Origin: Escherichia phage vB_EcoM_CRP22
Reading direction: 5' to 3' (one strand)
DNA length: 64,000 nt
Sequence record: OQ708377.1
How positions within the stretch are numbered: position 1 is the stretch's first letter; each line of letters begins with the position of its first letter. The position numbers were made by a program, and so were the translations under genes. Below the pieces are notes generated by a model. That model had not been told where the DNA came from, ran no database searches, and saw only the letters and a list, made by a program, of their open reading frames with translations. Below are positions 50,461-64,000 of this stretch, one piece after another.

Positions 50461-50490
50461 TTGACAAGGGGCTTTGAAGCCCCTTAGAAT
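50461..50490 (+). promoter_or_regulatory. sigma70 consensus-like promoter with hairpin in spacer (TTGACA-N18-TAGAAT)
   Basis: TTGACA 50461-50466; spacer aggggctttgaagcccct is itself a hairpin; TAGAAT 50485-50490. Confidence 0.55.
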
Positions 50491-50534: not shown

Positions 50535-51644
50535 ATGACTACTAAAACTAAAGCACAGATTGACGCAGAAATTTACAAACTGGTTAAAGAAGGCAAGCTG
50601 ACTAAAACAGCTATTGCACAGAAGTTCAATACTTCAACCCGTTCAGTTGGTCGTGCTGTAGAGCGTCATGAAGCAACCTTAAAGGGTAAGAAAAAGGTAG
50701 CTTCTACACCAGCTACGAAGACTTTGAAGCAAGTTGCTAAGTCAGTTAAAAAGAAAGCTGACAAACCAGTTGAAAAGGTCGTTAAAGAGTCTGTACAGAA
50801 AGCTCCAGTAAATAAACTGCATGAAGCTATGCAGAAAGATGACAAGATTGAGTACATGATTACTGGCGACTCTGTAATTATGACTTACGGTTCAGAATCT
50901 GAAATTGTTGAGTCTACTCATCCGAACTATCAAGAGATTGTAGTTCATGTTGTGAAAGGTGAGTTCAAGAAAGCTTTCGAACTGATGAACATTCGTAAAT
51001 CTATCGAAAACTTCACTCAGGGTGCTATCACAATCAAAGGTGACAAGCTATTCTACGGTGCTGTTGAGATGCGTTCTACTCTGGTTGACCGTATCCTTCA
51101 CATGATGAAGACTGGTGATAAAGGTTTTGAACGACTTGTAATGTTCTTCGAAAAACTGATGGAAAACCCATCTAAAGACTCTGTAGAACAACTTTGGGGA
51201 TTCGTATCTCACCTTGATGTTGAAATTGATGAAGAGGGTTACATCATTGGTTGGAAGAAAGTCTCTACTCGTGAAGGCAAACTGGTTGACTCTCACACCT
51301 ACAAAGTACCTAATGATTTGGGTAACATTGTAGAGATGCCACGTTGGATGGTTGATAACAACCGTAACGTAACTTGCTCTCAAGGTCTTCATGTTGGTGC
51401 TTGGGATTATGTTCGTTGCTTCTCAGGTGATACCATCCTGAAGGTTCGTGTCCATCCACGAGATGTTGTATCTGTTCCAACTGATTACAACGATATGAAG
51501 ATGCGCTCATCCCGTTATGAAGTTGCAGCAATCGTTGATAATCAGCGTAGAGTGCTGAAAGCATGGGACGGTAAGACTGAGGCTTTGCATGTCATCGTTG
51601 GCACTGCTGGTGAACTTATCTCTCAACGGAAACGTGAAATCTAA
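50535..51644 (+). CDS. hypothetical protein (rIIB-like by position only)
   Basis: 369 aa immediately downstream of rIIA-like gene; no motif recognised. Confidence 0.25.
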   Translation: MTTKTKAQIDAEIYKLVKEGKLTKTAIAQKFNTSTRSVGRAVERHEATLKGKKKVASTPATKTLKQVAKSVKKKADKPVEKVVKESVQKAPVNKLHEAMQKDDKIEYMITGDSVIMTYGSESEIVESTHPNYQEIVVHVVKGEFKKAFELMNIRKSIENFTQGAITIKGDKLFYGAVEMRSTLVDRILHMMKTGDKGFERLVMFFEKLMENPSKDSVEQLWGFVSHLDVEIDEEGYIIGWKKVSTREGKLVDSHTYKVPNDLGNIVEMPRWMVDNNRNVTCSQGLHVGAWDYVRCFSGDTILKVRVHPRDVVSVPTDYNDMKMRSSRYEVAAIVDNQRRVLKAWDGKTEALHVIVGTAGELISQRKREI

Positions 51645-51744: not shown

Positions 51745-52293
51745 ATGAAGAAGTTGATTCTAGGTTTGTGCTTAATGTTTACAGCACACTTATCTTATGC
51801 AGTTGACTGCCCAGAGCTATCAATTAGCCAAAAAGTAAACATGCTAAAAGCTTACCAGTATGGTGAGAATAATATGGGGAAAGGTTGGGGTATCACTCTA
51901 GCTGCTATAGCCTTACAAGAGTCAGAGTTAGGTCTGAAGGTAGAGAATAAAAAGACCCATGACTATGGTATCTTCCAGAATCACTTGAAGACTGTTGTAA
52001 AGCGTAACAAAATCAGTCCTAATGTGGCTAAAAAGAAACTCTTAAAAGATTTTGACTATGCTGCAAAGGAAACACACAAAGAGCTTGAGTTTTGGACGAA
52101 GGTACATGGTCAACCAAAGTCAAAGAAGACTTTACAAAAAGTTTTAGCATCATATAATGCTGGGTATTCATACAAAATCCCTAAAGCTAAGAAATATTCT
52201 CAAGATGTCTATAACAACATGAAAGTTATTGCTCAATGTGAATTTGCAACAAACATTTCTAAGGTAAATCATGAAAAAATTAAGAAAGTCTGA
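51745..52293 (+). CDS. secreted lytic transglycosylase (SLT domain) candidate
   Basis: Signal peptide MKKLILGLCLMFTAHLSYA; catalytic-type AIALQESELG and YNAG motif (ASYNAGYS). Confidence 0.45.
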   Translation: MKKLILGLCLMFTAHLSYAVDCPELSISQKVNMLKAYQYGENNMGKGWGITLAAIALQESELGLKVENKKTHDYGIFQNHLKTVVKRNKISPNVAKKKLLKDFDYAAKETHKELEFWTKVHGQPKSKKTLQKVLASYNAGYSYKIPKAKKYSQDVYNNMKVIAQCEFATNISKVNHEKIKKV

Positions 52294-55292: not shown

Positions 55293-56078
55293 ATGGGTAT
55301 TGTAAAAATCATCAATGGGGATATCTTCTCCGCATTTGATAAAGGTAAGTTTGATGTTATTGGTCACGGTTGCAACTGTATGAATTTAATGGGTGCAGGT
55401 ATCGCTGACAAGATTTCTAAACTTTACCCAAAAGCATATGAGACTGATACAGAAGTCTATCTGTATGCAGGTGGTATAGGTCACAAACCCTGTGAAAATT
55501 TACTAGGCAATTTCTCTGTAGCACGTTTAGAACAAGGCCGTATAGCTAACCTTTACACTCAGCTTAAGACTGGTAAAGATGCCCGATACAGTGCTTTAGA
55601 GTCATCTTTGAAACAACTTAACAGATACTGTGAAGTCAATCAGTTGAAGAAAGTTGGGTTACCTATGATTGGTGCAGGTATCGGTGGACTAGACTCTCAA
55701 GCCGTCACAGTCATCATTAATCAGGTGATGAAGAGTGTAGATGTGTATCTGTATGTCTATGAAGGAGAGATGTACCACAAGTTACGCTCAGGTTGGAAGA
55801 ACTACTGTGAACCAGAATACTTTGCTGGTGTAGTAGTGTTCACTAATGATGTAGTTACCCTCTTCAGACGAAGAAAAGGCAAGATACATCAAAGTAACCC
55901 TCCGGTTGAAAAGATGTCTCTAAGTAACGCTCTAGTTACCCACCTGTCGAAGAGCAATCACAGAATTGCAGTAACATTTGGCAGTGATGCAGATACATAT
56001 ATCTATGCAAGAACTGATGAGGATGTTGAGGAAATTTTCTCTTCACCGGAAGTAACCTTCTTAGACGCAAAGAACTAA
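55293..56078 (+). CDS. macro-domain protein (ADP-ribose binding/hydrolase candidate)
   Basis: N-terminal IINGDIF, GHGCNCMNLMGAGIADKI and later GLPMIGAGIGGLD match the macro-domain G-rich loop pattern. Confidence 0.5.
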   Translation: MGIVKIINGDIFSAFDKGKFDVIGHGCNCMNLMGAGIADKISKLYPKAYETDTEVYLYAGGIGHKPCENLLGNFSVARLEQGRIANLYTQLKTGKDARYSALESSLKQLNRYCEVNQLKKVGLPMIGAGIGGLDSQAVTVIINQVMKSVDVYLYVYEGEMYHKLRSGWKNYCEPEYFAGVVVFTNDVVTLFRRRKGKIHQSNPPVEKMSLSNALVTHLSKSNHRIAVTFGSDADTYIYARTDEDVEEIFSSPEVTFLDAKN

Positions 56079-56152
56079 GAAACTCTGTAGAATATTCACA
56101 ATAAACTAAGCCTTTCTTATCTGGTAAATTTTTCAGGTAAGGAGGGCTTTTT

Positions 56153-56330
56153 CATTTTAGAATTGTGCAGGTAGAGTTCTGTAGAGAAATCTGTAGAGAA
56201 AATTTTGAACTCCAAAGAGAAAATTCATTTTCAAACTGTGCAGGTAATCTCCAAAGAGCTTTTTCATTTTCAAAACGTGCAGACCCCGCTCAGGTCGGGC
56301 AAGAAAAATCATTTTAGAATTGTGCAGGTA
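56153..56330. repeat. four direct repeats of a 21-bp box CATTTT(A/C)(G/A)AA(n)(T)GTGCAG(G/A)(T/C)(A/C)
   Basis: Boxes at 56153-56173, 56226-56246, 56265-56285, 56310-56330 (first and last identical); also tandem TCTGTAGAGAAA x2 and TCCAAAGAG x2. Confidence 0.6.
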
Positions 56331-56506: not shown

Positions 56507-56535
56507 TTGACTCTTTGAATATGGTTATCTAATAT
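56507..56535 (+). promoter_or_regulatory. sigma70-like promoter (TTGACT-N17-TAATAT) at head of early-gene array
   Basis: TTGACT 56507-56512, 17-nt spacer, TAATAT 56530-56535; upstream AT-rich tract. Confidence 0.55.
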
Positions 56536-56584
56536 TTGCATCAGACGGGCAATCAAGCCCACTTCCTAAACTGGAGAATCAAAA

Positions 56585-56791
56585 ATGCTTTACAGTCGTG
56601 AATTGATGGTTACAACTAACGTTAACACAAAGGTAAAACGTTTTTATATGCAAGTTTGCGGCGCATGGCGTAGAATATCAGAAGCTGATTATTGCAACTA
56701 TGTAGAAACGGCAATCAACTCCAATTGCTACCTTACGAAGAACACAAAGAAACTTATAAAACAGACAGCGGTTTACTATTACGATATATAA
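56585..56791 (+). CDS. small early-region protein
   Basis: 68 aa; ATG preceded by conserved CTAAACTGGAGAATCAAAA leader. Confidence 0.4.
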   Translation: MLYSRELMVTTNVNTKVKRFYMQVCGAWRRISEADYCNYVETAINSNCYLTKNTKKLIKQTAVYYYDI

Positions 56792-56880
56792 AAGTACTTT
56801 ACAGGGGGCTTAAAAGCTGATATCTTAAGCCCCAGATAAAGAGCTTTACTAAATTAACCCTTAAACTAGGAGATTCAAAA
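56792..56880 (+). promoter_or_regulatory. intergenic module A copy 1 (TTTACA-N17-TATCTT overlapping GC hairpin, conserved leader and RBS)
   Basis: aagtactttacagggggcttaaaagctgatatcttaagccccagataaagagctttac...taaactaggagattcaaaa. Confidence 0.5.
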
Positions 56881-57261
56881 ATGGCTTATCGTGCACCTAA
56901 ATTCATCAACAAAGACAACTTTCGCAACACACTGGAGAAGTCACTTGATGAAAATTTTAAAGGTAACATTGTTGTTGTTCACTCGTTTAATTTCAAGTAT
57001 GATATCAACGGGAATAAAATCAACCATTACACGGCAACCATGTTAGATGGTACACTATCAAGTGAAAAAGCCGTACTGAATGCACTTGCAGGACGTGGTA
57101 AAAACCTGATAAGATGCGATAAGAGACGTTATCAGGGTGGCGCATATGGTTATGATGATGCTGTTTATCATCTTGAAAATATGGGCTATTCAGTGGAAAA
57201 AGCTGGAGTGTCTCAAATAATCGGCAGTGACGGCTATGTGACAATTTTCAAAATTAACTAA
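56881..57261 (+). CDS. early-region protein
   Basis: 126 aa, follows module A. Confidence 0.4.
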   Translation: MAYRAPKFINKDNFRNTLEKSLDENFKGNIVVVHSFNFKYDINGNKINHYTATMLDGTLSSEKAVLNALAGRGKNLIRCDKRRYQGGAYGYDDAVYHLENMGYSVEKAGVSQIIGSDGYVTIFKIN

Positions 57262-57263
57262 TA

Positions 57264-57349
57264 AAGTACTTTACAGGGGGCTTATAGTTCGATAAAGTAA
57301 GCCCCAGATAAAGAGCTTTACCACTAAATCCTAAATTGGAGATTCAAAA
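57264..57349 (+). promoter_or_regulatory. intergenic module A copy 2
   Basis: TTTACA-N17-TAAAGT; hairpin arms ggggctta/taagcccc (compensatory variant). Confidence 0.5.
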
Positions 57350-57640
57350 ATGGCTATTATTAAAAACGTTGTAATTCCTGCAAAAACTCGTGATGACGCT
57401 CGCATCATGGCGAAAAAGTTAGGCGGGAAAGTGGTTGACAACGGAAAACAAACTGCTGTAAGGTGGAACGTGAAGGCGGATAAACAAATGAATTTAAAAA
57501 ATTCACCAATAAACCTTTTTACATGTGTAAACACTATCGGGAAAACGAATGTATACACTAAAAAGGCATATATCAGACGCATCGCCATGACGTCACCTAT
57601 TCGCACAATGAGAAGTCATGCAAAGCTGAAAATTAAGTAA
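57350..57640 (+). CDS. early-region basic protein
   Basis: 96 aa, follows module A. Confidence 0.4.
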   Translation: MAIIKNVVIPAKTRDDARIMAKKLGGKVVDNGKQTAVRWNVKADKQMNLKNSPINLFTCVNTIGKTNVYTKKAYIRRIAMTSPIRTMRSHAKLKIK

Positions 57641-57642
57641 TA

Positions 57643-57730
57643 GAGTACTTTACAGGGGGCTTAAAAGCTGATATCTTAAGCCCCAGATAAAGAGCTTTAC
57701 TACTCAATCCTTAAACTAGGAGATTCAAAA
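57643..57730 (+). promoter_or_regulatory. intergenic module A copy 3
   Basis: Near-identical to copy 1. Confidence 0.5.
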
Positions 57731-58243
57731 ATGAAAACTGTAGACGCTACCTTTGAAGTTGTAAAAGAAAAATTTTCCATCATTTACGAAGCTGTCAATT
57801 GCTACGAAGCAAGCCATAATCTTGATAATTGGAAGTTTACAGATGACCATCAAGGCGGTGTGACTATTAAAAACCCCAACTGTCAGCGTAATGGATTTAA
57901 ATATGCAATTCCTTTACATTACAGCCTTAAACAGCTTTCAATTGACTATGCAAAACAAGGCCGGGAAAATCCATCGAAAGAGGCTTACATCAGCTTACAG
58001 AAAGAACTAGAAAGAGATTTAGAGGCTTCAGAATATAACATCGCCGCGAAAGTTGTAGATGCAAACGGTAGCACGGTTTTAGAGAGTTTTTATATTGGTT
58101 ATGCTTTCGATTGGTGCTACAGTGACGGCGATGATTTAGATGACAGACTAAAAGAGGAAGTGAACAACGCAGACGCAGAATCTGAAGTATTAGAACGCTT
58201 GGAAGCATTAAAAGATTCAGTGATGAATATCTTTAAGAACTAA
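57731..58243 (+). CDS. early-region acidic protein
   Basis: 170 aa, follows module A. Confidence 0.4.
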   Translation: MKTVDATFEVVKEKFSIIYEAVNCYEASHNLDNWKFTDDHQGGVTIKNPNCQRNGFKYAIPLHYSLKQLSIDYAKQGRENPSKEAYISLQKELERDLEASEYNIAAKVVDANGSTVLESFYIGYAFDWCYSDGDDLDDRLKEEVNNADAESEVLERLEALKDSVMNIFKN

Positions 58244-58246
58244 ATA

Positions 58247-58330
58247 GATTTCTTTACACGGGGCTAACAAGCGGATATGATAGCCCCAGATAAAGAGATT
58301 TATCAACTGTCCTAAACTGGAGATTCAAAA
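58247..58330 (+). promoter_or_regulatory. intergenic module A copy 4 (diverged)
   Basis: TTTACA-N17-TATGAT; hairpin arms ggggcta/tagcccc; leader ...cctaaactggagattcaaaa. Confidence 0.45.
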
Positions 58331-58627
58331 ATGAAACTATCAAATAAAGTTAGGGAAAACCTTAGTAAATTACTCAACAAAATTGATTTTATCGAGACCT
58401 CAAGAAATACTCATGAGGTGATGGAATGGTTACACGGCAAAATAAAAGGCCGTCGTGTAGTGATTTGCTTATGGAACAGTTGCAGGGAATATAAAAAACC
58501 TGTATTACAAGTTAATATTTATGATGATACTTTTAAAAGTCCTGTAAAGTCTAAAAGCGATTTATTAGAATCCTATGAGATAACTGTAAATGGCAAAGTA
58601 TCACGTAAAGAGGAAACACCATGTTAA
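58331..58627 (+). CDS. early-region protein
   Basis: 98 aa. Confidence 0.4.
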   Translation: MKLSNKVRENLSKLLNKIDFIETSRNTHEVMEWLHGKIKGRRVVICLWNSCREYKKPVLQVNIYDDTFKSPVKSKSDLLESYEITVNGKVSRKEETPC

Positions 58628-58953
58628 TGATTGGTATCACTGCAACCGTTGCCATTTTCGCGCTATATAAGGCGTATAAGGCCTATAATCTAGCAAATAA
58701 GGCAATCACACAGCAGGTTAGCAATAACTTGGTAGAGAGCTTTCTAGGACGCCTCAGTGATGAGCAAATAAAGCGGCTAGAGATGAGCTTCAGATATAAA
58801 GCGAAAACCTATCAGATAAGTGACATCTTCAAAGATGATTTTCAGCTTGTCGATGATTATAACTCTCTGATAAATGCTTTAAATGTCAGTGACTTAAAAG
58901 ACTATTACGCTGTAATTGTTCAAGAATTGAGCAAACGAAAAAATTCCTCTTGA
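58621..58953 (+). CDS. early-region membrane protein
   Basis: 110 aa; N-terminal hydrophobic helix (MLMIGITATVAIFALY); start overlaps previous stop. Confidence 0.4.
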   Translation: MLMIGITATVAIFALYKAYKAYNLANKAITQQVSNNLVESFLGRLSDEQIKRLEMSFRYKAKTYQISDIFKDDFQLVDDYNSLINALNVSDLKDYYAVIVQELSKRKNSS

Positions 58954-59039
58954 TTTTGGTTTTTAAAACAAGTAAATTACTAATCAACGGGAGGGATAAC
59001 CTCCTACTAAATAAAGTCCTTAAACTAGGAGATTATAAA
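58941..59039 (+). repeat. intergenic module B copy 1 (GTAAATTACTAATCAACGG + GGGAGG/CCTCC hairpin + conserved leader)
   Basis: tcttgattttggtttttaaaacaagtaaattactaatcaacgggagggataacctcctactaaataaagtccttaaactaggagattataaa. Confidence 0.5.
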
Positions 59040-59312
59040 ATGTATACTACTAACAACGGTCGCACTTTAAACGTAACCCTACGTCACTATGTAAACGGTG
59101 TGATGTGCTTTGATGATTTACAAGCTGAGCAACATATCTTGGATTGGCAACTTGCAGGACTCCAAAAAACTGCTACCGGATACGGGAAAAAGATTCCAAC
59201 TAGCTGGAAAGTCCACTACAAAGGACGTTTGCGCAGAATTTATCAGGATATATGTAGCAATAGCGCATCAAGTTACATCATGGTAAAAGGTAAAAAATTA
59301 CACTTAGTATAA
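59040..59312 (+). CDS. early-region protein
   Basis: 90 aa starting MYTTNNGRTL at the conserved ATG after module B; ORF-track N-terminal extension is a translated repeat. Confidence 0.4.
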   Translation: MYTTNNGRTLNVTLRHYVNGVMCFDDLQAEQHILDWQLAGLQKTATGYGKKIPTSWKVHYKGRLRRIYQDICSNSASSYIMVKGKKLHLV

Positions 59313-59398
59313 AGTACTTTACAAGGGGCTTATAGTTCGATAAAGTAAGCCCCAGATAAAGAGCTTTACTAACTAAATCCTAAATTGGAGATTCAAAA
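59312..59398 (+). promoter_or_regulatory. intergenic module A copy 5
   Basis: TTTACA-N17-TAAAGT; same hairpin variant as copy 2. Confidence 0.5.
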
Positions 59399-59803
59399 AT
59401 GGCTATTAATAACCGTGAGTTATCAATCTTAAAAGCACGTTTGACCGTTAACCGGATTAATGTTATCACGTCATCAGCACCGGATGAAACACTTCAAAAC
59501 ATTATTAGGAAGATTCAAAGTGTTATCTTAGACGTTGAAAGCGTAAAAAACTCATTGGCTGACGTTGCAGCAGGTATCACGCTAGACGGTGCACAATATG
59601 AAATGGTTGACATGTTAGGCAAATCTAAAGTAATGAATAAAGAGTTAGATTTGAAAATGTTCCGTTTTGCTGTTAAGGTGTGGCTATCCATCGAATATGA
59701 CGCAAATTTTGCAATCGCTGACTTTTTCGCAACATGGTTACAACGTAATTTAACAAATTATGATTTTCGTGATATCTGCGATGCAATTTACGCAGAACTT
59801 TAA
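59399..59803 (+). CDS. early-region protein
   Basis: 134 aa. Confidence 0.4.
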   Translation: MAINNRELSILKARLTVNRINVITSSAPDETLQNIIRKIQSVILDVESVKNSLADVAAGITLDGAQYEMVDMLGKSKVMNKELDLKMFRFAVKVWLSIEYDANFAIADFFATWLQRNLTNYDFRDICDAIYAEL

Positions 59804-59908
59804 AAATTTCTCTTGATTTTGGTTTTTAAAACAAGTAAATTACTAATCAACGGGGAGGGAATGACCTTTCCCCCACTAAGTAAAGTCCTTAAACTAGGAG
59901 ATTCGAAA
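59804..59908 (+). repeat. intergenic module B copy 2
   Basis: tctcttgattttggtttttaaaacaagtaaattactaatcaacggggagggaatgacctttccccc...ccttaaactaggagattcgaaa. Confidence 0.5.
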
Positions 59909-60112
59909 ATGGCTATTATTAATGGTTTAAACATTGAAACTACTCACATCAAAGATATTAAAGTCGGCGATATAGTCCTTTTTCACGGCGTAGAAAAAAC
60001 CGTCACTGAAAAGGATATCAAAGAGGATTCATTCATGGGTCGGTCGCTCTTCGGTGATTCCTATTGCTTAGGTTACCGTGCAGTTTTAAAAGTTGTCAAA
60101 AATAATCGTTAA
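59909..60112 (+). CDS. early-region protein
   Basis: 67 aa starting MAIINGLNIE at the conserved ATG. Confidence 0.4.
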   Translation: MAIINGLNIETTHIKDIKVGDIVLFHGVEKTVTEKDIKEDSFMGRSLFGDSYCLGYRAVLKVVKNNR

Positions 60113-60123
60113 AGTACTTTACA

Positions 60124-60198
60124 AGGGGCTTAAAAGTTGATATCTTAAGCCCCAGATAAAGAGCTTTACCACTAAATCCTAAACTGGAGATTCAAAAA
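60124..60198 (+). promoter_or_regulatory. intergenic module A copy 6
   Basis: TTTACA-N17-TATCTT; hairpin ggggcttaa/ttaagcccc. Confidence 0.5.
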
Positions 60199-60765
60199 AT
60201 GAAATGCTATCACGGCACTACTCTGAAAAACTTTGTAAACCTGCTTAAAGGTGGCGACAAGCCGGAAGGTATCTGGAACTGCTCTTACATGGATGATTGT
60301 TTTTACGTTTACCCGATGGATAAGATTATCAAGACGGAATGCCTGGAAGATGAAGAAGACCCTTACATCCGTGAACGCTGCATTCAAAACGCTTTAGAGT
60401 CGGGGCTTATTACGGCAGCTTTCCAAATGGAAACGCAGGAAGTGATTGTAATTGAGATGGATATCCCAGAGGAAGAGCTTGAGGATGATTATTCTTGTGA
60501 CAACATGAGCGAAATCGCCAGCTTTACCGGTTACTTTGATAAAGATTGGATTATCGGTATTCACTCGACGAAATTTAGTGCAATGTATGCGCCATTCTTT
60601 GTTCCTGATACAACTAACCATAATTTGGGCTATATTGACGATGATTTGTTGAGTATTGCAAAAATTGTACAGAATAGCGGGGAGACTTCTTCTGTGTTTT
60701 GTGACCTGCTGGATAAAATTACCGAGAATCTCACAGAGCGCAATCTAAGCGACTTTTTAGACTAA
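60199..60765 (+). CDS. early-region protein with ADP-ribosyltransferase-like (H-G-T) N-terminal motif
   Basis: 188 aa; MKCYHGTTLKNFVNLLKGGDKP resembles the YHGT NAD-binding strand-helix of diphtheria-toxin-class ARTs and Tpt1/KptA (recalled); aromatic-rich SYMDDCFYVY; acidic stretches. Confidence 0.35.
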   Translation: MKCYHGTTLKNFVNLLKGGDKPEGIWNCSYMDDCFYVYPMDKIIKTECLEDEEDPYIRERCIQNALESGLITAAFQMETQEVIVIEMDIPEEELEDDYSCDNMSEIASFTGYFDKDWIIGIHSTKFSAMYAPFFVPDTTNHNLGYIDDDLLSIAKIVQNSGETSSVFCDLLDKITENLTERNLSDFLD

Positions 60766-60794
60766 GCAGTACAAAGACACTAATTTCCAACTTA

Positions 60795-60815
60795 AGGCCC
60801 ATACAGGGCCATTTA
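60795..60815 (+). terminator. hairpin terminator-like element
   Basis: ggcccatacagggcc followed by ATTT. Confidence 0.4.
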
Positions 60816-60828
60816 GAGGGCTTAAATC

Positions 60829-61062
60829 ATGCTTACAACCGTTTATCTCATCCTTTCTATTTGTAACGGTCATTCATGTGATTTTAAAGGGCTTGAGGAG
60901 TTTACAGGAAGTAAAGAAAATGCTATTCAGGTTTGCCAGATAGCAAGGCAAGACTATCCCGCCAGTGATGATATACAATGCTACTTCAAAACAGAAGATA
61001 ACGACGGCGTCTATTTTGATAGTGTCGATGGTCAATATGAAATTATCATTGAAAAAGACTAG
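60829..61062 (+). CDS. early-region small protein with N-terminal hydrophobic segment
   Basis: 77 aa; MLTTVYLILSICNGHSC... Confidence 0.35.
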   Translation: MLTTVYLILSICNGHSCDFKGLEEFTGSKENAIQVCQIARQDYPASDDIQCYFKTEDNDGVYFDSVDGQYEIIIEKD

Positions 61063-61078
61063 ACAAGCCTGATAAAAG

Positions 61079-61153
61079 TCTGTAAATTACTAATCAACGG
61101 GGAGGTAATGACCTTCCCCACTAAATAAAGTCCTTAAACTAGGAGATTCTAAA
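61079..61153 (+). repeat. intergenic module B copy 3
   Basis: tgtaaattactaatcaacggggaggtaatgaccttccccactaaataaagtccttaaactaggagattctaaa. Confidence 0.5.
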
Positions 61154-61402
61154 ATGTATACTAAAACTCAACTAAAAAACATGGTTAGCAATGGCTTAAT
61201 GGATGAAGTCTATAAAGAGTGTAGACGATATGGAGAAATCAAAGGTAAAACAAGCTATGAATACACCCACACAATAAACTTTAAAACTAATGAGCAAAAA
61301 ACCGACTTAATAACTAGCATTATAATTGAGTATAAAGGTATAATATGGTCCTTTGAGCTAGTGAAAGGTGAGTGCATAGAAATCGAATACAAAGACGCTT
61401 AA
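61154..61402 (+). CDS. early-region protein
   Basis: 82 aa. Confidence 0.4.
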   Translation: MYTKTQLKNMVSNGLMDEVYKECRRYGEIKGKTSYEYTHTINFKTNEQKTDLITSIIIEYKGIIWSFELVKGECIEIEYKDA

Positions 61403-61488
61403 AAGTACTTTACAAGGGGCTTAAAAGTTGATATCTTAAGCCCCAGATAAAGAGCTTTACCACTAAATCCTAAACTGGAGATTCAAAA
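61403..61488 (+). promoter_or_regulatory. intergenic module A copy 7
   Basis: Identical core to copy 6. Confidence 0.5.
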
Positions 61489-61830
61489 ATGGCTTATGTA
61501 ACCGTAATTACTGATAAAGCTGGCTCATCTTGGTCAACTCAAGTAAGTGATAAGATGTCACCTATGCAGTGCCTAAAATACTTTGAGCAGTGGAACAAAG
61601 GCGAGGATGTCAGCCCCTTTCAAGTGATGCAAATCATCCATACAGATAACGAAGGAAACAAAACGACACTTAATAGTGAGTATTACACAAATCGTTTTGA
61701 GAGTCGAGTTGAAACGATGAAGGGGCTGCGTGAGGCCGGATATGGGCACATTGCCGCCTTGTTATGGGATGACCTGCTAAAAAGTCAGCGTATCAGCTAC
61801 ATAAAACCTGAAAAAATATTCATCAGTTAA
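61489..61830 (+). CDS. early-region protein
   Basis: 113 aa. Confidence 0.4.
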   Translation: MAYVTVITDKAGSSWSTQVSDKMSPMQCLKYFEQWNKGEDVSPFQVMQIIHTDNEGNKTTLNSEYYTNRFESRVETMKGLREAGYGHIAALLWDDLLKSQRISYIKPEKIFIS

Positions 61831-61977
61831 TCAATAACTTACAAAAAACTTTTAAAAAAGTGTTGACAATCCCTATTGACATTGGTAACTTTGTTCGAGG
61901 GGGCTTATCTTAAAGGGATTCACTTAAAAGGTTCTTTATAGATAAGCTCAAAAAATTACTTGCAATCAGATATCAAA

Positions 61978-62051
61978 ACAAGTAAATTACTAATCAACGG
62001 GGAGGGATTAACCTTCCCCACTAAACAAAGTCCTAAACTGGAGATTCAAAA
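61978..62051 (+). repeat. intergenic module B copy 4
   Basis: acaagtaaattactaatcaacggggagggattaaccttccccactaaacaaagtcctaaactggagattcaaaa. Confidence 0.5.
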
Positions 62052-62582
62052 ATGAACAAGTTCAAAGCTATCAACTTCATTCGTTCAAATAGTGTCATGT
62101 CAAAGCCTGTTAAAGATACCTATGAATTTCGTTGTAATGGTGTACATTTTGCAACAATCACCAAATCAGAAAACGGGGCTTATTACGTCCATCGTCGTAA
62201 TGTTGCAACCGTTGCAGTCTCTCACTTTATGCAAGCTGTAGCGGAATTATTACCGTTATTCTTAGAGATTTATCTAGATGATTGTAAAAACGTTCACAGA
62301 CACGTTAAAAACCTTTTAAACGGTTATAGAATGGCTTATGAACGTTCTATCAAGTCCTTAAACAAGTTCTATAAAGCCCCTGTAAATACCGTTTCAATGG
62401 CCTATGGCGTAGGTGGCTGGACTGTTAACCTTTCTCTAGTGGAAGAAATCGAGCTTTATGATTTACGCCCTGATGGATACTCTAAGACACTGGGAGAGGG
62501 CTTATCTTTCAATATCAAGAACTTAGAGAAAACTTTAAAAGATATTGAAAAAGATATTGACGAGACAACCAAAAATCTGTAA
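62052..62582 (+). CDS. early-region protein
   Basis: 176 aa; stop codon TAA forms the start of the next module B core (cTGTAAATTAC). Confidence 0.4.
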   Translation: MNKFKAINFIRSNSVMSKPVKDTYEFRCNGVHFATITKSENGAYYVHRRNVATVAVSHFMQAVAELLPLFLEIYLDDCKNVHRHVKNLLNGYRMAYERSIKSLNKFYKAPVNTVSMAYGVGGWTVNLSLVEEIELYDLRPDGYSKTLGEGLSFNIKNLEKTLKDIEKDIDETTKNL

Positions 62583-62651
62583 ATTACTAATCAACGGGGA
62601 GGGGATGACCTTCCCCACTAAGTAAAGTCCTTAAACTAGGAGATTCAAAAA
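62577..62651 (+). repeat. intergenic module B copy 5
   Basis: ctgtaaattactaatcaacggggaggggatgaccttccccactaagtaaagtccttaaactaggagattcaaaaa. Confidence 0.5.
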
Positions 62652-62900
62652 ATGGCAACTATCCGCGCAATTGTAAATTCTTATGGCTGCTACACTCTGG
62701 ACGTTAAATTTGATATTGGTGGGACTGATGAGTGTTTCGAACTGGTGAAGACAGTCATTAAACAAGTTATCCCAGACTATAACCCCACTGATGACTTCTG
62801 GAAAGATGCCGTAAAAGAGGCGTTGAACGATGAATATCATTACCATTACTGGGGTGACTTGATTGTCTCCCTATACTACAGCAAACAAGGTTACAACTAA
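62652..62900 (+). CDS. early-region protein
   Basis: 82 aa; last gene before the 1.1 kb non-coding region. Confidence 0.4.
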   Translation: MATIRAIVNSYGCYTLDVKFDIGGTDECFELVKTVIKQVIPDYNPTDDFWKDAVKEALNDEYHYHYWGDLIVSLYYSKQGYN

Positions 62901-62936
62901 TCGACGCAACGGGGCTAAATAGCCCCAGATACCTTC

Positions 62937-62990
62937 AAAGCCCCTTTATATTGATTCGATAGAATCTATCTCATAGGGGCTTTTTTATGT
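62937..62990. terminator. long hairpin (AAAGCCCC...GGGGCTTT) enclosing palindrome GATAGAATCTATC, followed by T-run
   Basis: 8-bp GC-rich stem arms at 62937-62944 and 62976-62983; TTTTTTAT after; palindrome at about 62958-62970 with a second degenerate copy at about 63038-63050. Confidence 0.45.
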
Positions 62991-63329
62991 CTTATCAAAT
63001 CCTTTCCCTTTCCAGAATCTATCCCACTAATTCGATAGAACCTATCTCATACCTTAAAAGGCAATAACTCTATAGCTTACTCTATAGCCCCTTATCAAAT
63101 CAACTTAAATATAAGCCCATAACCCCAGAAAGGGGATGGCCTCTTATTGGTATTGTTACCAATCCCCTAAAACGCTCTATAAAGCTCTATAACAGCCTTA
63201 TCAACCTAACTTAAGGGATTGCATTAACTCACCTTAAAAAGCTCTTTACAGGGCTTTATAGAGGCTTAAAAGAATCTTATAAGGTTATAAGCTTTATTAT
63301 CTCGTTAGCTATCTTGTGAACTACTAAAA

Positions 63330-64000
63330 AGGGGCTTGTTAGTGTCTTAAAAGTATGTTATAGGGGCTATAAAGTTACTTCAAAGTTACGTAAAAGAAGC
63401 TATAAAGTTACGTAAATGCTAGCCCCCTTAACATCTTCTTAACAAATTCTTAACAATACCTACATAGTTATGCTTGTTAGAGACTTGTTAGCCCCTTGTT
63501 AAATCTCTGTTAAAACCACGTAAAAGCTTTGTAAGAGTCTTTGACATAGCCTTAAAAGCTCCTGTAAAGCCTTATAAATAGGTGTCTGTATAGTTGGGGT
63601 GTAATTACTAGGAAGAGGTTTAAAAGAGCTTACAAGGAGCTATAGAGAGCTTTTAAAAGGGCTATTTAGAGAATCACTAAGAGGGAAAGGGAACGATAAG
63701 AAAGAGATAGTGACCATGTTAATAGCTTGTTAAAAAGATTAAACACTTGTTAGGAACTTGTTAATTATCTTAACAAAATAACTCTTAAAAATTAACTTGT
63801 TAGCTCTTGTTAGTCATCCGTTAAGACGCTGTAAAGCCCATGTAGCAACTGTTAAGAACTTGTTACAGCCTTGTTAGTTCTGTTAAGAGTCTGTTAAGAC
63901 CTCTGAAGAGATGTTAAGAGGATGTAATAGCTGTTAAGAGATTGTTAAGGATATTTTAAAATTCTGCAAAGGGGATGTTACAGGGATGTTAAGGGCTACC
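63330..64000. repeat. dense array of short (C/T)TGTTA(A/G) motifs in ORF-free DNA
   Basis: More than 20 copies, e.g. 63850, 63860, 63871, 63880, 63890 spaced about 10 bp apart; no ORF of 60 aa or more on either strand from 62901 to window end. Confidence 0.6.

What the first reader, a model, noticed from the sequence alone, without database searches (positions are those of the whole stretch)
56585..62900. Early-gene array punctuated by two families of conserved hairpin-containing intergenic modules with a shared translation-initiation region
About 15 small genes of unknown function are each preceded by one of two repeated modules. Module A (7 copies) has TTTACA, a 17-nt spacer, and a TAnnnT hexamer; the spacer and -10 lie inside a GC-clamped hairpin whose arms differ between copies in compensatory fashion (ggggcttaa/ttaagcccc, ggggctta/taagcccc, ggggcta/tagcccc) while the hexamers stay fixed. 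This is followed by a conserved AGATAAAGAGCTTTAC box. Module B (5 copies) has core GTAAATTACTAATCAACGG followed by a GGGGAGG(n)CCTTCCCC hairpin. Both families end in the same leader TAAACT(A)GGAGATTCAAAA-ATG. Covariation argues that the hairpins are selected structures, not just sequence identity from recent duplication. The module is therefore promoter plus structured element plus standardised RBS, a cassette-like organisation that may drive recombinational shuffling of small host-takeover genes.
Basis: seen in the sequence. Interest (0 to 1): 0.6.

Follow-up and report, generated by a model that had tools for sequence, protein, structure and literature searches.

The report
Promoter-hairpin gene cassettes in Felix O1-like phage
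A Felix O1-like phage carries 15 small genes of unknown function, most with their own copy of a repeated promoter, RNA hairpin and ribosome-binding leader; these repeats also act as recombination points for gaining and losing genes, as in the "PeSL" cassettes known from T4-like phages.

Summary
The window is a Felixounavirus, and 56.5-62.9 kb corresponds to Felix O1 ORF15-23 (ORF14 not annotated in the RefSeq record). Module A (7 copies), module B (5 copies plus one divergent copy) and a shared GGAG leader (13 copies) occur only in this array. Module A is a sigma-70 promoter: TTTACA, 17 nt, TAnnnT, with only the critical -10 bases fixed across 105 distinct copies. It lies inside a three-tier, ~20-bp stem. 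The "AGATAAAGAGCTTTAC box" is the 3' half of that stem. Covariation is strong, including in Erwinia phages. Frequent non-Watson-Crick pairs are all sense-strand G.U, so the structure is selected in RNA and can form only in read-through transcripts. Its hairpin starts about 3 nt after the predicted transcript start. No internal hairpin has a U-tract, whereas canonical terminators bracket the array. Between relatives, whole cassettes come and go, with breakpoints inside the modules. This matches the PeSL cassettes of T4-like phages, apparently not yet reported for Felix O1-like phages. Promoter activity, transcript ends and hairpin function are untested.

The parts
56108..56157 (+). Canonical intrinsic terminator (17-bp stem plus T-run) that closes the upstream unit. 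This is the 5' boundary of the array.
   Evidence: terminator scan; fold -23.6 kcal/mol, z -6.0. Same sequence as terminator t13 in the Felix O1 paper.
56507..56584 (+). First promoter of the array, a divergent B-type module: -35 TTGACT 56507-56512, -10 TAATAT 56530-56535, short hairpin GGGC..GCCC 56547-56560, standard leader up to the ATG at 56585.
   Evidence: Same layout as the Moogle homologue.
56585..62900 (+). Fifteen same-strand ORFs of 67-188 aa, starting at 56585, 56881, 57350, 57731, 58331, 58621, 59040, 59399, 59909, 60199, 60829, 61154, 61489, 62052 and 62652. All are of unknown function.
   Evidence: ORFs; no Pfam domain, and each ORF falls in a PHROG family of unknown function.
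56790..56880 (+). Module A1: three-tier hairpin 56790-56848, -35 TTTACA 56798-56803, -10 TATCTT 56821-56826, predicted start ~56834, Shine-Dalgarno site 56869.
57262..57349 (+). Module A2: hairpin 57262-57320, -35 57270-57275, -10 TAAAGT 57293-57298, predicted start ~57306.
57641..57730 (+). Module A3: hairpin 57641-57699, -35 57649-57654, -10 TATCTT 57672-57677, predicted start ~57685.
58245..58330 (+). Module A4, the variant with top stem GGGGCUA..UAGCCCC and a continuous 13-bp lower stem: hairpin 58245-58302, -35 58253-58258, -10 TATGAT 58276-58281.
   Evidence: (-28.2 kcal/mol, z -5.0).
59310..59398 (+). Module A5: hairpin 59310-59368, -35 59318-59323, -10 TAAAGT 59341-59346.
60110..60198 (+). 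Module A6: hairpin 60110-60168, -35 60118-60123, -10 TATCTT 60141-60146.
61401..61488 (+). Module A7: hairpin 61401-61459, -35 61409-61414, -10 TATCTT 61432-61437. In Meda, SUT_S920, momo and Moogle the same downstream gene sits behind a B module instead.
58950..59039 (+). Module B1: -35 TTGATT 58950-58955 (contains the upstream gene's TGA stop), -10 TAAATT 58973-58978, predicted start ~58986, hairpin 58989-59004, Shine-Dalgarno site 59028.
59813..59908 (+). Module B2: -35 TTGATT 59813-59818, -10 59836-59841, predicted start ~59849, hairpin 59852-59874.
61060..61153 (+). Module B3: -35 TAGACA 61060-61065 (contains the upstream TAG stop), -10 61083-61088, predicted start ~61096, hairpin 61099-61119.
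61960..62051 (+). Module B4: -35 TTGCAA 61960-61965, -10 61983-61988, predicted start ~61996, hairpin 61999-62019.
62557..62651 (+). Module B5: -35 TTGACG 62557-62562 (inside the upstream coding sequence), -10 62580-62585 (its TAA is the upstream stop codon), predicted start ~62593, hairpin 62596-62616.
62907..62931 (+). Remnant hybrid module after the last gene: CAAC + GGGGCTAAATAGCCCC + AGATA. It has a hairpin but no promoter hexamers and no leader.
62937..62986 (+). Terminator-like long hairpin (AAAGCCCCU..AGGGGCUUU) followed by a T-run. This is the 3' boundary of the array.
   Evidence: -34 kcal/mol for the stretch, z -5.8. Same position as Felix O1 terminator t23.

Best explanation
This is a bounded transcription unit of a Felix O1-like phage. 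Nearly every small ORFan gene in it carries its own copy of a ~90-105-bp composite regulatory cassette of the PeSL type.

Shown by sequence comparison:
(i) Module A is a host sigma-70 promoter (TTTACA, 17 nt, TAnnnT) embedded in a three-tier, ~20-bp stem-loop. The stem is maintained by compensatory changes and tolerates only sense-strand G.U wobbles, so it is selected in + strand RNA.
(ii) Module B is a second sigma-70 promoter (A-tract, TTGACA-like -35, 17 nt, TAAATT), followed by a G-run/C-run hairpin.
(iii) Both modules end in one standard leader with a GGAG Shine-Dalgarno site 8-9 nt before the ATG.
(iv) Related genomes differ by whole cassettes, with breakpoints inside the repeats, and module variants are exchanged between positions.

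Inferred:
- Host RNA polymerase starts at each module. The predicted A start is the A of AGATAAAG, which lies inside the 3' arm. The A hairpin can therefore form only in RNA reading through from upstream promoters, where it sits directly after the upstream stop codon.
- None of the 12 internal hairpins has a U-tract, whereas the array is bracketed by canonical terminators. The A hairpin is therefore most likely a 3'-end-protecting or processing element, or at most a weak attenuator, that separates cistrons in read-through RNA. It is unlikely to be an efficient terminator.
- The B hairpin begins about 3 nt after its predicted start. It most likely acts as a 5'-terminal stabilising stem-loop.
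- The repeats supply 22-97 nt of homology, so ORFan cassettes can be deleted, inserted and re-headed while always keeping a promoter and a ribosome-binding site.
For: Repeat families are real and confined to the array.

Promoter A. In 105 distinct copies TTTACA is invariant. At a 17-nt spacing, 98 copies have TAnnnT, and most of the remaining seven fit an 18-nt spacing. The three inner -10 positions are almost free. All seven window copies pass the sigma-70 scan.

Promoter B. In 149 distinct copies anchored only downstream, T, A and T of the -10 are invariant (149/149 each). A TTGACA-like hexamer (T147 T125 G145 A108 C87 A97) lies exactly 17 nt upstream, often inside unrelated upstream coding sequence. 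An A-tract lies further upstream.

Structure A. Folds reach -23 to -28 kcal/mol. In the formal count, 96.9% of cells are paired against 89.8% in shuffles (0 of 500), 117 cells changed on both sides against 23 (0 of 500), 7 pairs changed on both sides, and slid controls give 33-56% pairing. G.U fills 183 cells against 6 for A.C, and every frequent non-Watson-Crick state is G.U on the + strand. The Erwinia phage Tian homologue keeps the stem through a G-C to U-A change at the third pair and keeps the promoter hexamers.

No U-tract follows any internal hairpin. The array is flanked by canonical terminators.

Shuffling. Cassettes are present or absent between genomes, and the gene at 61489 changes from an A to a B module. 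39 of 41 breakpoints lie in modules that cover about 26% of the array, with 22-97 nt overlaps at junctions. Variants are exchanged or homogenised between positions.

Context. [quoted passage not shown] Four of eight tested array ORFs peak at 5 min. The modules occur at more than 1,100 places each in 241-287 phage records, including Kolesnikvirus and Mooglevirus.
Against: No transcript 5' or 3' ends have been mapped for any Felix O1-like phage in the library searched. Promoter use, start sites and every hairpin function are therefore inferred.

The covariation counts are cells, not independent events. The copies are related by duplication and descent, which inflates shuffle-based significance. 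The slid controls and the Erwinia copies mitigate this but do not remove it.

Breakpoints in intergenic DNA are partly expected anyway, because indels that break genes are selected against. Many of the 41 ends also reflect shared ancestral events.

Module B's arms are G-runs and C-runs, so covariation there is uninformative.

The Felix O1 RT-PCR timing is mixed: half of the tested ORFs peak at 25 min.

In T4-like PeSLs, a stem-loop without an obvious U-tract reduced downstream lacZ as strongly as a strong terminator. The absence of a U-tract therefore does not exclude attenuation.
Confidence: 0.72

Rival explanations
1. Composite promoter-terminators in the strict PeSL sense. The hairpins are efficient transcription terminators, so each gene is an insulated monocistronic unit driven only by its own promoter.
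For: The PeSL papers showed that one such stem-loop lowered downstream lacZ as much as rrnB T1. The hairpins sit directly after stop codons and are stable. KhF3's annotators called the B hairpins terminators, though on the opposite strand.
Against: None of the 12 hairpins is followed by a U-tract. The invariant sequence after hairpin A is AGAUAAAG, and after B it is ACUAA. The same phage uses textbook terminators with U-runs at both ends of the array, so the absence inside the array looks deliberate. The lower two tiers of the A stem are A-U rich and carry an internal loop, unlike terminator stems.
Confidence: 0.2
2. The module A hairpin is a double-strand-specific processing site, for host RNase III, like the sites between phage T7 early genes. 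Cleavage releases each cistron from read-through RNA and leaves a protective 3' hairpin.
For: The geometry fits what I know of T7 R-sites (my own knowledge, not tested here): about 20 bp in total, a 9-bp upper stem, a 3x3 internal loop and a lower stem of about 11 bp with a 1x1 mismatch. All three tiers covary, which an exonuclease block alone would not need. It lies between consecutive early-type genes with no terminator.
Against: There is no cleavage data. Rfam has no matching family. Twenty base pairs with two interruptions is at the low end for RNase III. The 'RNase III inhibitor' note on the neighbouring Macro-domain gene is only a family label.
Confidence: 0.2
3. The palindromes act at the DNA level, either as operators for a dimeric phage or host regulator that shuts the promoters off, or as cruciforms that modulate promoter strength.
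For: The inverted repeat overlaps the -35, the spacer and the -10, which is the classic position for a repressor operator. The outer arms (AAAGTACTTTA / TAAAGAGCTTT) are highly conserved in sequence.
Against: Arms change on both sides while keeping complementarity, whereas operators conserve sequence rather than pairing. Frequent non-Watson-Crick states are all G.U on the + strand (183 cells against 6 for A.C). That is a mismatch in DNA and would be A.C on the other strand. The loop and spacer sequence is free to vary.
Confidence: 0.06
4. These are neutral leftovers of recent tandem duplication. The repeats look alike only because they are young, and the hairpin and hexamers carry no function.
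For: Copies within a genome are 70-100% identical, and gene conversion homogenises them.
Against: The modules are shared by three genera of Ounavirinae at about 80% identity, with promoter hexamers and pairing kept. Variation is concentrated at exactly the positions a sigma-70 promoter and a stem tolerate. The downstream genes are unrelated to each other.
Confidence: 0.02

Closest known systems
PeSLs (promoter-early stem-loops) of T4-like phages RB49/phi1, T4/PST and KVP40/nt-1 (Arbiol et al. 2010, PMC2839356; Comeau et al. 2014, PMC4122927)
   Same: Repeated intergenic motifs of about 100 bp made of a sigma-70-type early promoter with an A/T-rich upstream region, a G-run/C-run stem-loop placed between the -35 and -10 or over the -10, and a Shine-Dalgarno site plus ATG at the 3' end. 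They are concentrated next to ORFans in a plastic region, and indels between relatives are bounded by the motifs. The T4/PST promoter consensus TTTACW-N17-TAYWAT resembles module A's TTTACA-N17-TAnnnT.
   Different: The phage subfamily differs (Ounavirinae, not T4-like), and I did not test for sequence homology to T4-type PeSLs. Here the stem is a three-tier, ~20-bp structure that also swallows the -35 and the first 15 transcribed bases, and RNA-level selection is demonstrable by covariation and G.U asymmetry. A second family (B) places the hairpin after the start site. Both families share one standard leader. PeSL promoter and terminator activity and mini-circle formation were shown experimentally; nothing has been tested here.
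RNase III processing sites between the early genes of phage T7 (my own knowledge; not checked in the library)
   Same: Stable hairpins with an internal loop lie between consecutive early genes transcribed by host polymerase, and there is no terminator between the genes.
   Different: T7 sites are not fused to promoters and are not repeat families with a common leader. Cleavage here is untested.
5'-terminal stabilising stem-loops such as the ompA 5' UTR hairpin (my own knowledge)
   Same: The module B hairpin is predicted to start 2-4 nt from the 5' end of its transcript, the position at which such hairpins protect against 5'-end-dependent decay.
   Different: The start site is predicted, not mapped, and no half-life data exist.
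'57 bp' and '39 bp' direct repeats listed in the Felix O1 genome paper (Whichard et al. 2010, PMC3185647)
   Same: These are the same elements: the 57-bp repeat is module A between genes 15/16 and 19/20, and the 39-bp repeat TTGACA..TAAATTACACATCAAC is module B.
   Different: The paper reports them only as direct repeats. No promoter, hairpin, leader or recombination role is assigned, and its promoter list does not include them.

Membership tests
PeSL (promoter-early stem-loop cassette) | Sigma-70-like -35 and -10 hexamers about 17 nt apart | tested here: met
   A: TTTACA in 105/105 copies and TAnnnT in 98/105 at 17 nt. B: -10 T, A and T in 149/149 copies, with a TTGACA-like -35 at 17 nt.
PeSL (promoter-early stem-loop cassette) | [quoted passage not shown] | tested here: met
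   B: an A-tract 5-10 nt upstream of the -35 (A101-143 of 149). A: ATAAAGTA precedes the -35.
PeSL (promoter-early stem-loop cassette) | Stable stem-loop with G-run/C-run arms, between the -35 and -10 or overlapping the -10 | tested here: met
   A: GGGG..CCCC top stem spanning the spacer and -10. B: the hairpin lies downstream of the -10, which is a positional variant.
PeSL (promoter-early stem-loop cassette) | Shine-Dalgarno sequence and start codon of the downstream gene at the 3' end | tested here: met
   GGAGATTCAAAAATG occurs 13 times, only in the array.
PeSL (promoter-early stem-loop cassette) | Repeated and concentrated in a plastic region next to ORFans | tested here: met
   No copies elsewhere in the 64 kb window. 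All 15 genes are of unknown function. Gene content varies between relatives.
PeSL (promoter-early stem-loop cassette) | Indels and replacements between related genomes bounded by the motifs | tested here: met
   39 of 41 breakpoints lie in modules, with junction overlaps of 22-97 nt, and module variants are exchanged between positions.
PeSL (promoter-early stem-loop cassette) | Demonstrated promoter activity, stem-loop attenuation, and mini-circle formation | not testable with these tools
   Needs reporter fusions, in vitro transcription and inverse PCR on infected cells.
PeSL (promoter-early stem-loop cassette) | Host taxon: T4-like myoviruses, where the class was defined | tested here: not met
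   The window is a Felixounavirus, subfamily Ounavirinae. This limits the claim 'same lineage of elements', not the claim 'same kind of element'.
Rho-independent (intrinsic) terminator | G+C-rich stem immediately followed by a U-tract | tested here: not met
   The scan finds none at the 12 modules. The sequences after the stems are AGATAAAG (A) and ACTAA (B). The flanking terminators at 56108 and 62937 do have U-tracts.
RNase III processing hairpin (T7 early type) | About 20 bp of mostly double-stranded RNA with an internal loop, between cistrons | tested here: inconclusive
   The geometry is compatible, but neither cleavage nor sequence determinants can be tested here.
5'-terminal stabilising stem-loop | Hairpin beginning within about 4 nt of the transcript 5' end | tested here: inconclusive
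   With the usual 7-8 nt from the -10 to the start, the B hairpin begins at +3 or +4. The start site is predicted, not mapped.

The most novel reading that the evidence does not exclude
Module A may be a promoter fused to an RNA processing site. Under this reading the three-tier hairpin, present only in read-through RNA, is cut by RNase III or another double-strand-specific nuclease. Every cistron would then end up as the same defined mRNA, whether it was initiated at its own promoter or upstream, with a 3' protective hairpin on the upstream product. Module B would achieve the same at the 5' end with a terminal hairpin. Together they would form a self-contained 'plug-and-play' expression unit that keeps ORFan expression uniform wherever recombination drops the cassette.
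Probability: 0.2. Interest if true: 0.6.

Novelty: new member of a known kind. Interest (0 to 1): 0.42.

Why it matters
Felix O1-like phages are widely used for Salmonella and E. coli typing, diagnostics and biocontrol, yet the Felix O1 genome paper explicitly left their transcription programme unresolved. These modules supply about a dozen candidate host-polymerase promoters that the published annotations list only as 'direct repeats' or miss altogether.

They also show that the PeSL principle is not a peculiarity of T4-like phages: regulatory cassettes that double as recombination handles for ORFans. An apparently unrelated set of such elements (no sequence comparison to T4-type PeSLs was run) exists in another myovirus subfamily.

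The covariation and G.U asymmetry give a kind of evidence the PeSL papers read here do not report, namely that the stem-loop is selected as sense-strand RNA. The absence of U-tracts makes its role (terminator, processing site or stabiliser) directly testable.

On the practical side, the modules are natural, compact, standardised expression units and safe insertion points for engineering these phages.

Tried and rejected
1. RegB lead. Erwinia phage Tian annotates a 'putative T4 RegB endoribonuclease' upstream of its array. RegB would cut the GGAG of the standard leader. The window homologue (51745-52293, 45% identity) has a signal-peptide-like N-terminus and only a sub-threshold SLT transglycosylase hit, with no RegB family match. 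Rejected.

2. 'RNase III inhibitor' note on the Macro-domain gene upstream of the array (Meda annotation). The protein is a generic macrodomain whose best solved relatives are OARD1/TARG1 at E 2e-5. The YmdB-type chain labelled 'RNase III inhibitor' matches only at E 3e-3. This is not evidence for RNase III involvement.

3. Apparent paralogy of the genes behind B1 and B2 (grouped as 'w08'). This was an artefact of my ORF caller starting inside the shared module. With the leader-defined ATGs the proteins show no similarity. The family labels for these two positions should be ignored.

4. Rfam scan of 55.9-64 kb. Nothing relevant: only a sub-threshold sRNA hit on the opposite strand.

5. Position of the array relative to the physical genome ends. 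UAB_Phi87 has 608-bp terminal repeats, but I could not place them relative to the array and dropped the question.

6. The first viral-contig pattern was too loose and returned mostly chance hits. One literature search was too unspecific to be useful. A 2026 preprint on promoter-terminator coupling seen could not be opened.

7. My regular expression for B modules was too strict. B assignments there are incomplete, so I rely for module B.

Full report
IDENTITY AND CONTEXT. The window is a Felix O1-like myovirus of the genus Felixounavirus. The flagged 6.5 kb matches 254 phage records; the best is Salmonella phage Meda at 87% coverage and 88% identity. No genome is closer than about 95% over the core. 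The region corresponds to Felix O1 ORF15-23 (ORF14 is not annotated in the RefSeq record). It is a bounded unit. A canonical terminator lies at 56108-56157, identical to Felix O1 t13. A 430-nt non-coding stretch follows, then 15 same-strand ORFs (56585-62900), then a long terminator-like hairpin with a T-run at 62937-62986. None of the 15 proteins has a Pfam domain, and each belongs to a PHROG family of unknown function.

THE OBSERVATION. The two repeat families and the shared leader are real and are confined to this array. There are seven exact CTTTACANGGGGCT sites, five exact GTAAATTACTAATCAACGG sites, seven AGATAAAGAGCTTTAC boxes and 13 GGAGATTCAAAAATG leaders, against chance expectations of 0.05-3.4. 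Thirteen of the 15 genes carry a module: 7 A, 5 B and a divergent B-type at 56507-56584. The genes at 58621 and 60829 have none.

All seven copies pass a sigma-70 scan with a 17-nt spacer. I collected copies from public viral contigs using patterns that do not constrain the hairpin arms, then extracted them with profiles and anchors. In 105 distinct copies TTTACA is invariant. The hexamer 17 nt downstream is TAnnnT in 98 copies, and most of the other seven fit an 18-nt spacing. Its three inner positions are almost free: the third position is T35/A51/G12/C7, the fourth is C37/A28/G31/T9, and the fifth is T36/G28/A37/C4. Only the bases known to matter most for sigma-70 (-12T, -11A, -7T; established knowledge) are fixed.

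RNA folding shows the 9-bp GGGGCUUAA/UUAAGCCCC stem is only the top tier. Below it lie a 3x3 internal loop (CAN/AGA), a 5-bp stem CUUUA/UAAAG that includes most of the -35, a 1x1 mismatch, and a 6-bp stem UAAAGU/GCUUUA.

I tested this on a gapless alignment of 90 distinct stem sequences, including five Erwinia-type copies. In it, 96.9% of the 1,800 cells are paired, against 89.8% in shuffles (0 of 500 reach it). 117 cells have changes on both sides, against 23 expected (0 of 500). Seven of the 20 pairs change on both sides. Sliding the partners by 1-3 columns drops pairing to 33-56% and cuts the covariation score about tenfold. Examples: t7 is U-A 68 / A-U 21, t9 has five pair types, o3 is G-C 68 / U-A 12, and t3 is G-C 84 / U-A 5. 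The t3 U-A copies are the Erwinia phage copies (GGUGUUUA..UAAGCACC).

These numbers count cells, not independent events, and the copies are related, so the shuffle control overstates significance. The slid control and the cross-genus compensation are the stronger arguments.

THE STRUCTURE IS SELECTED IN SENSE-STRAND RNA. Across the stems, G.U occupies 183 cells and A.C only 6. All frequent non-Watson-Crick states are G.U on the + strand: t5 U.G 42, t9 U.G 25, o2 U.G 97 and o5 G.U 12. A.C appears only as scattered singletons. G.T is a mismatch in DNA, and the same sites would read A.C on the opposite strand. This argues against a cruciform, a protein-binding palindrome and an antisense RNA.

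With the usual 7-8 nt between the -10 and the start, the module's own transcript begins at the A of AGATAAAG (56834 and equivalents). That lies inside the 3' arm. The hairpin can therefore form only in RNA that reads through from upstream, where it sits within 0-4 nt of the upstream stop codon.

MODULE B IS ALSO A PROMOTER. I anchored only on CAACGG(G/A) plus the downstream leader. In 149 distinct copies, three positions are invariant: T, A and T at the first, second and sixth positions of the hexamer TAAATT. A TTGACA-like block lies exactly 17 nt upstream, and an A-tract lies further upstream. The -35 often lies inside the 3' end of unrelated upstream genes, and stop codons sit inside the -35 or the -10, yet the hexamer is kept. 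The predicted start is 2-4 nt before the GGGGAGG..CCUUCCCC hairpin. Every copy keeps at least 5 bp, with a median energy of -13.6 kcal/mol. The arms are G-runs and C-runs, so covariation there says little.

WHAT THE HAIRPINS DO (INFERENCE). None of the 12 internal hairpins is followed by a U-tract, although the phage uses textbook terminators at both ends of the array. I therefore think efficient intrinsic termination is unlikely. The A hairpin is more likely a 3'-end-protecting or processing element, or a weak attenuator, acting on read-through RNA. Its size and its upper stem, internal loop and lower stem recall the RNase III sites between T7 early genes (my own knowledge). That is a lead, not a result.

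The B hairpin's position fits a 5'-terminal stabiliser. The PeSL authors did measure strong attenuation by a stem-loop without an obvious U-tract, so attenuation stays open.

SHUFFLING. I built cassette maps for ten relatives. They show a conserved backbone with whole cassettes present or absent. The genes at 56881 and 57350, and those from 59909 to 61154, are missing in Felix O1. The gene at 61154 occurs only here and in Z31. KhF3 and Z31 have extra cassettes. The gene at 61489 follows an A module here but a B module in Meda, SUT_S920, momo and Moogle.

Of the 41 internal homology breakpoints, 39 lie in the modules, which cover about 26% of the array. At junctions the single module of the shorter genome aligns to both flanking copies of the longer one, over 22-32 nt (the leader), about 50 nt, or 96-97 nt (a whole module A). 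Variants at one position differ between genomes, and one variant can occupy several positions within a genome: Felix O1 at two, Moogle at two and momo at three. That indicates exchange between copies.

There are caveats. Intergenic breakpoints are partly enforced by selection against broken genes, and the events are not independent.

DISTRIBUTION AND PRIOR KNOWLEDGE. Module A occurs at 1,326 places in 287 phage records, including 29 Erwinia phages and 11 Citrobacter phages. Module B occurs at 1,151 places in 241 records. Erwinia phage Tian also has further families with the same layout but other sequences, and its own standard leader. Single, non-repeated promoter-in-hairpin sites occur elsewhere in the window.

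The Felix O1 genome paper lists these elements only as '57 bp' and '39 bp' direct repeats, names other promoters, and states that temporal regulation is unknown. The UAB_Phi87 paper reports only BPROM predictions. Eight papers in the library mention PeSLs; by title and abstract none concerns Felix O1-like phages. I found no transcript mapping for the genus.

The PeSL definition has these parts: a sigma-70 promoter with an A/T-rich upstream region, a G/C stem-loop between the -35 and -10 or over the -10, a Shine-Dalgarno site plus ATG, a location next to ORFans in plastic regions, and indels bounded by the motifs. Every sequence-level criterion is met. The experimental criteria are untestable here, and the host taxon differs.

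VERDICT. The organisation is a new, independent instance of a known kind of element (PeSL-type regulatory cassettes). It adds four features: a three-tier RNA stem that swallows the promoter, a second family with a 5' hairpin, one common leader, and clear RNA-level covariation. It is of moderate interest. It fills a gap in the transcription map of a much-used phage group and makes the role of promoter-embedded hairpins testable. It is not a new principle.

Noticed in passing
window 56143-56327: Four copies of a 28-34-nt repeat (TTTTCATTTTnnAAnTGTGCAG, spaced 39-73 nt) lie in the 430-nt non-coding stretch between the upstream terminator and the first promoter of the array. The same repeats are present at the same place in Citrobacter phage Moogle and Erwinia phage Tian (there as ..TGTGCAT). 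Possible regulator-binding sites or phage-specific promoters; function unknown.
   Followed up: partly
window 62990-64000: A non-coding region of more than 1 kb after the array is packed with short repeats (CTTGTTAG / TGTTAAGA / CTATAAAG-type words, and a 22-nt repeat ATTCGATAGAAnCTATCTCATA at 62954 and 63030). Relatives have a similar 1.3-1.7 kb gene-free stretch here, annotated 'repeat_region' in phages pinkbiff and momo. Several GenBank records are opened near it. Possibly an origin or packaging region.
   Followed up: no
window 62907-62931: A remnant hybrid module follows the last gene: CAAC (B-type) + GGGGCTAAATAGCCCC + AGATA (A-type). It has no promoter hexamers and no leader, and looks like a scar of recombination between module types.
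   Followed up: partly
window 61831-61959: An extra 130 nt lies upstream of module B4, with two TTGACA motifs and a long hairpin (GGGGGCTTATCT..AGATAAGCTC). It is conserved in Moogle and is neither an A nor a B module.
   Followed up: no
window 50461-50490 (+), 41804 (+), 22012 (-): Single, non-repeated sites share the same layout: a TTGACA -35, a stable hairpin filling the 17-18-nt spacer, and a TAnnnT -10. At 50461 the sequence is TTGACA-AGGGGCTTTGAAGCCCCT-TAGAAT, just before the gene at 50535. The promoter-in-hairpin habit is therefore not limited to the repeat families.
   Followed up: partly
window 55293-56078: The gene just upstream of the array (Felix O1 ORF13, annotated 'phosphatase') has a Macro domain (PF01661, E 2e-7). 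Its nearest solved relatives are OARD1/TARG1-type ADP-ribose hydrolases. The 'RNase III inhibitor' note in phage Meda's record is a family label only.
   Followed up: partly
L269 (Erwinia phage Tian) 47-559; window 51745-52293: The 'putative T4 endoribonuclease RegB' annotation in Tian is not supported. The protein has a signal-peptide-like N-terminus, and the window homologue gives only a weak SLT transglycosylase hit.
   Followed up: yes
GenBank GU169904.1 (Staphylococcus phage SA1), one search hit H91: A record named as a Staphylococcus phage carries five places matching module B at up to 87% identity. This suggests that part of the 147-kb record is Felix O1-like sequence, from a chimeric assembly or contamination.
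   Followed up: no
L267 (phage KhF3): KhF3's annotation marks the module B hairpins as Rho-independent terminators on the strand opposite to the genes. This is probably an artefact of automated prediction on a symmetric G/C hairpin.
   Followed up: no
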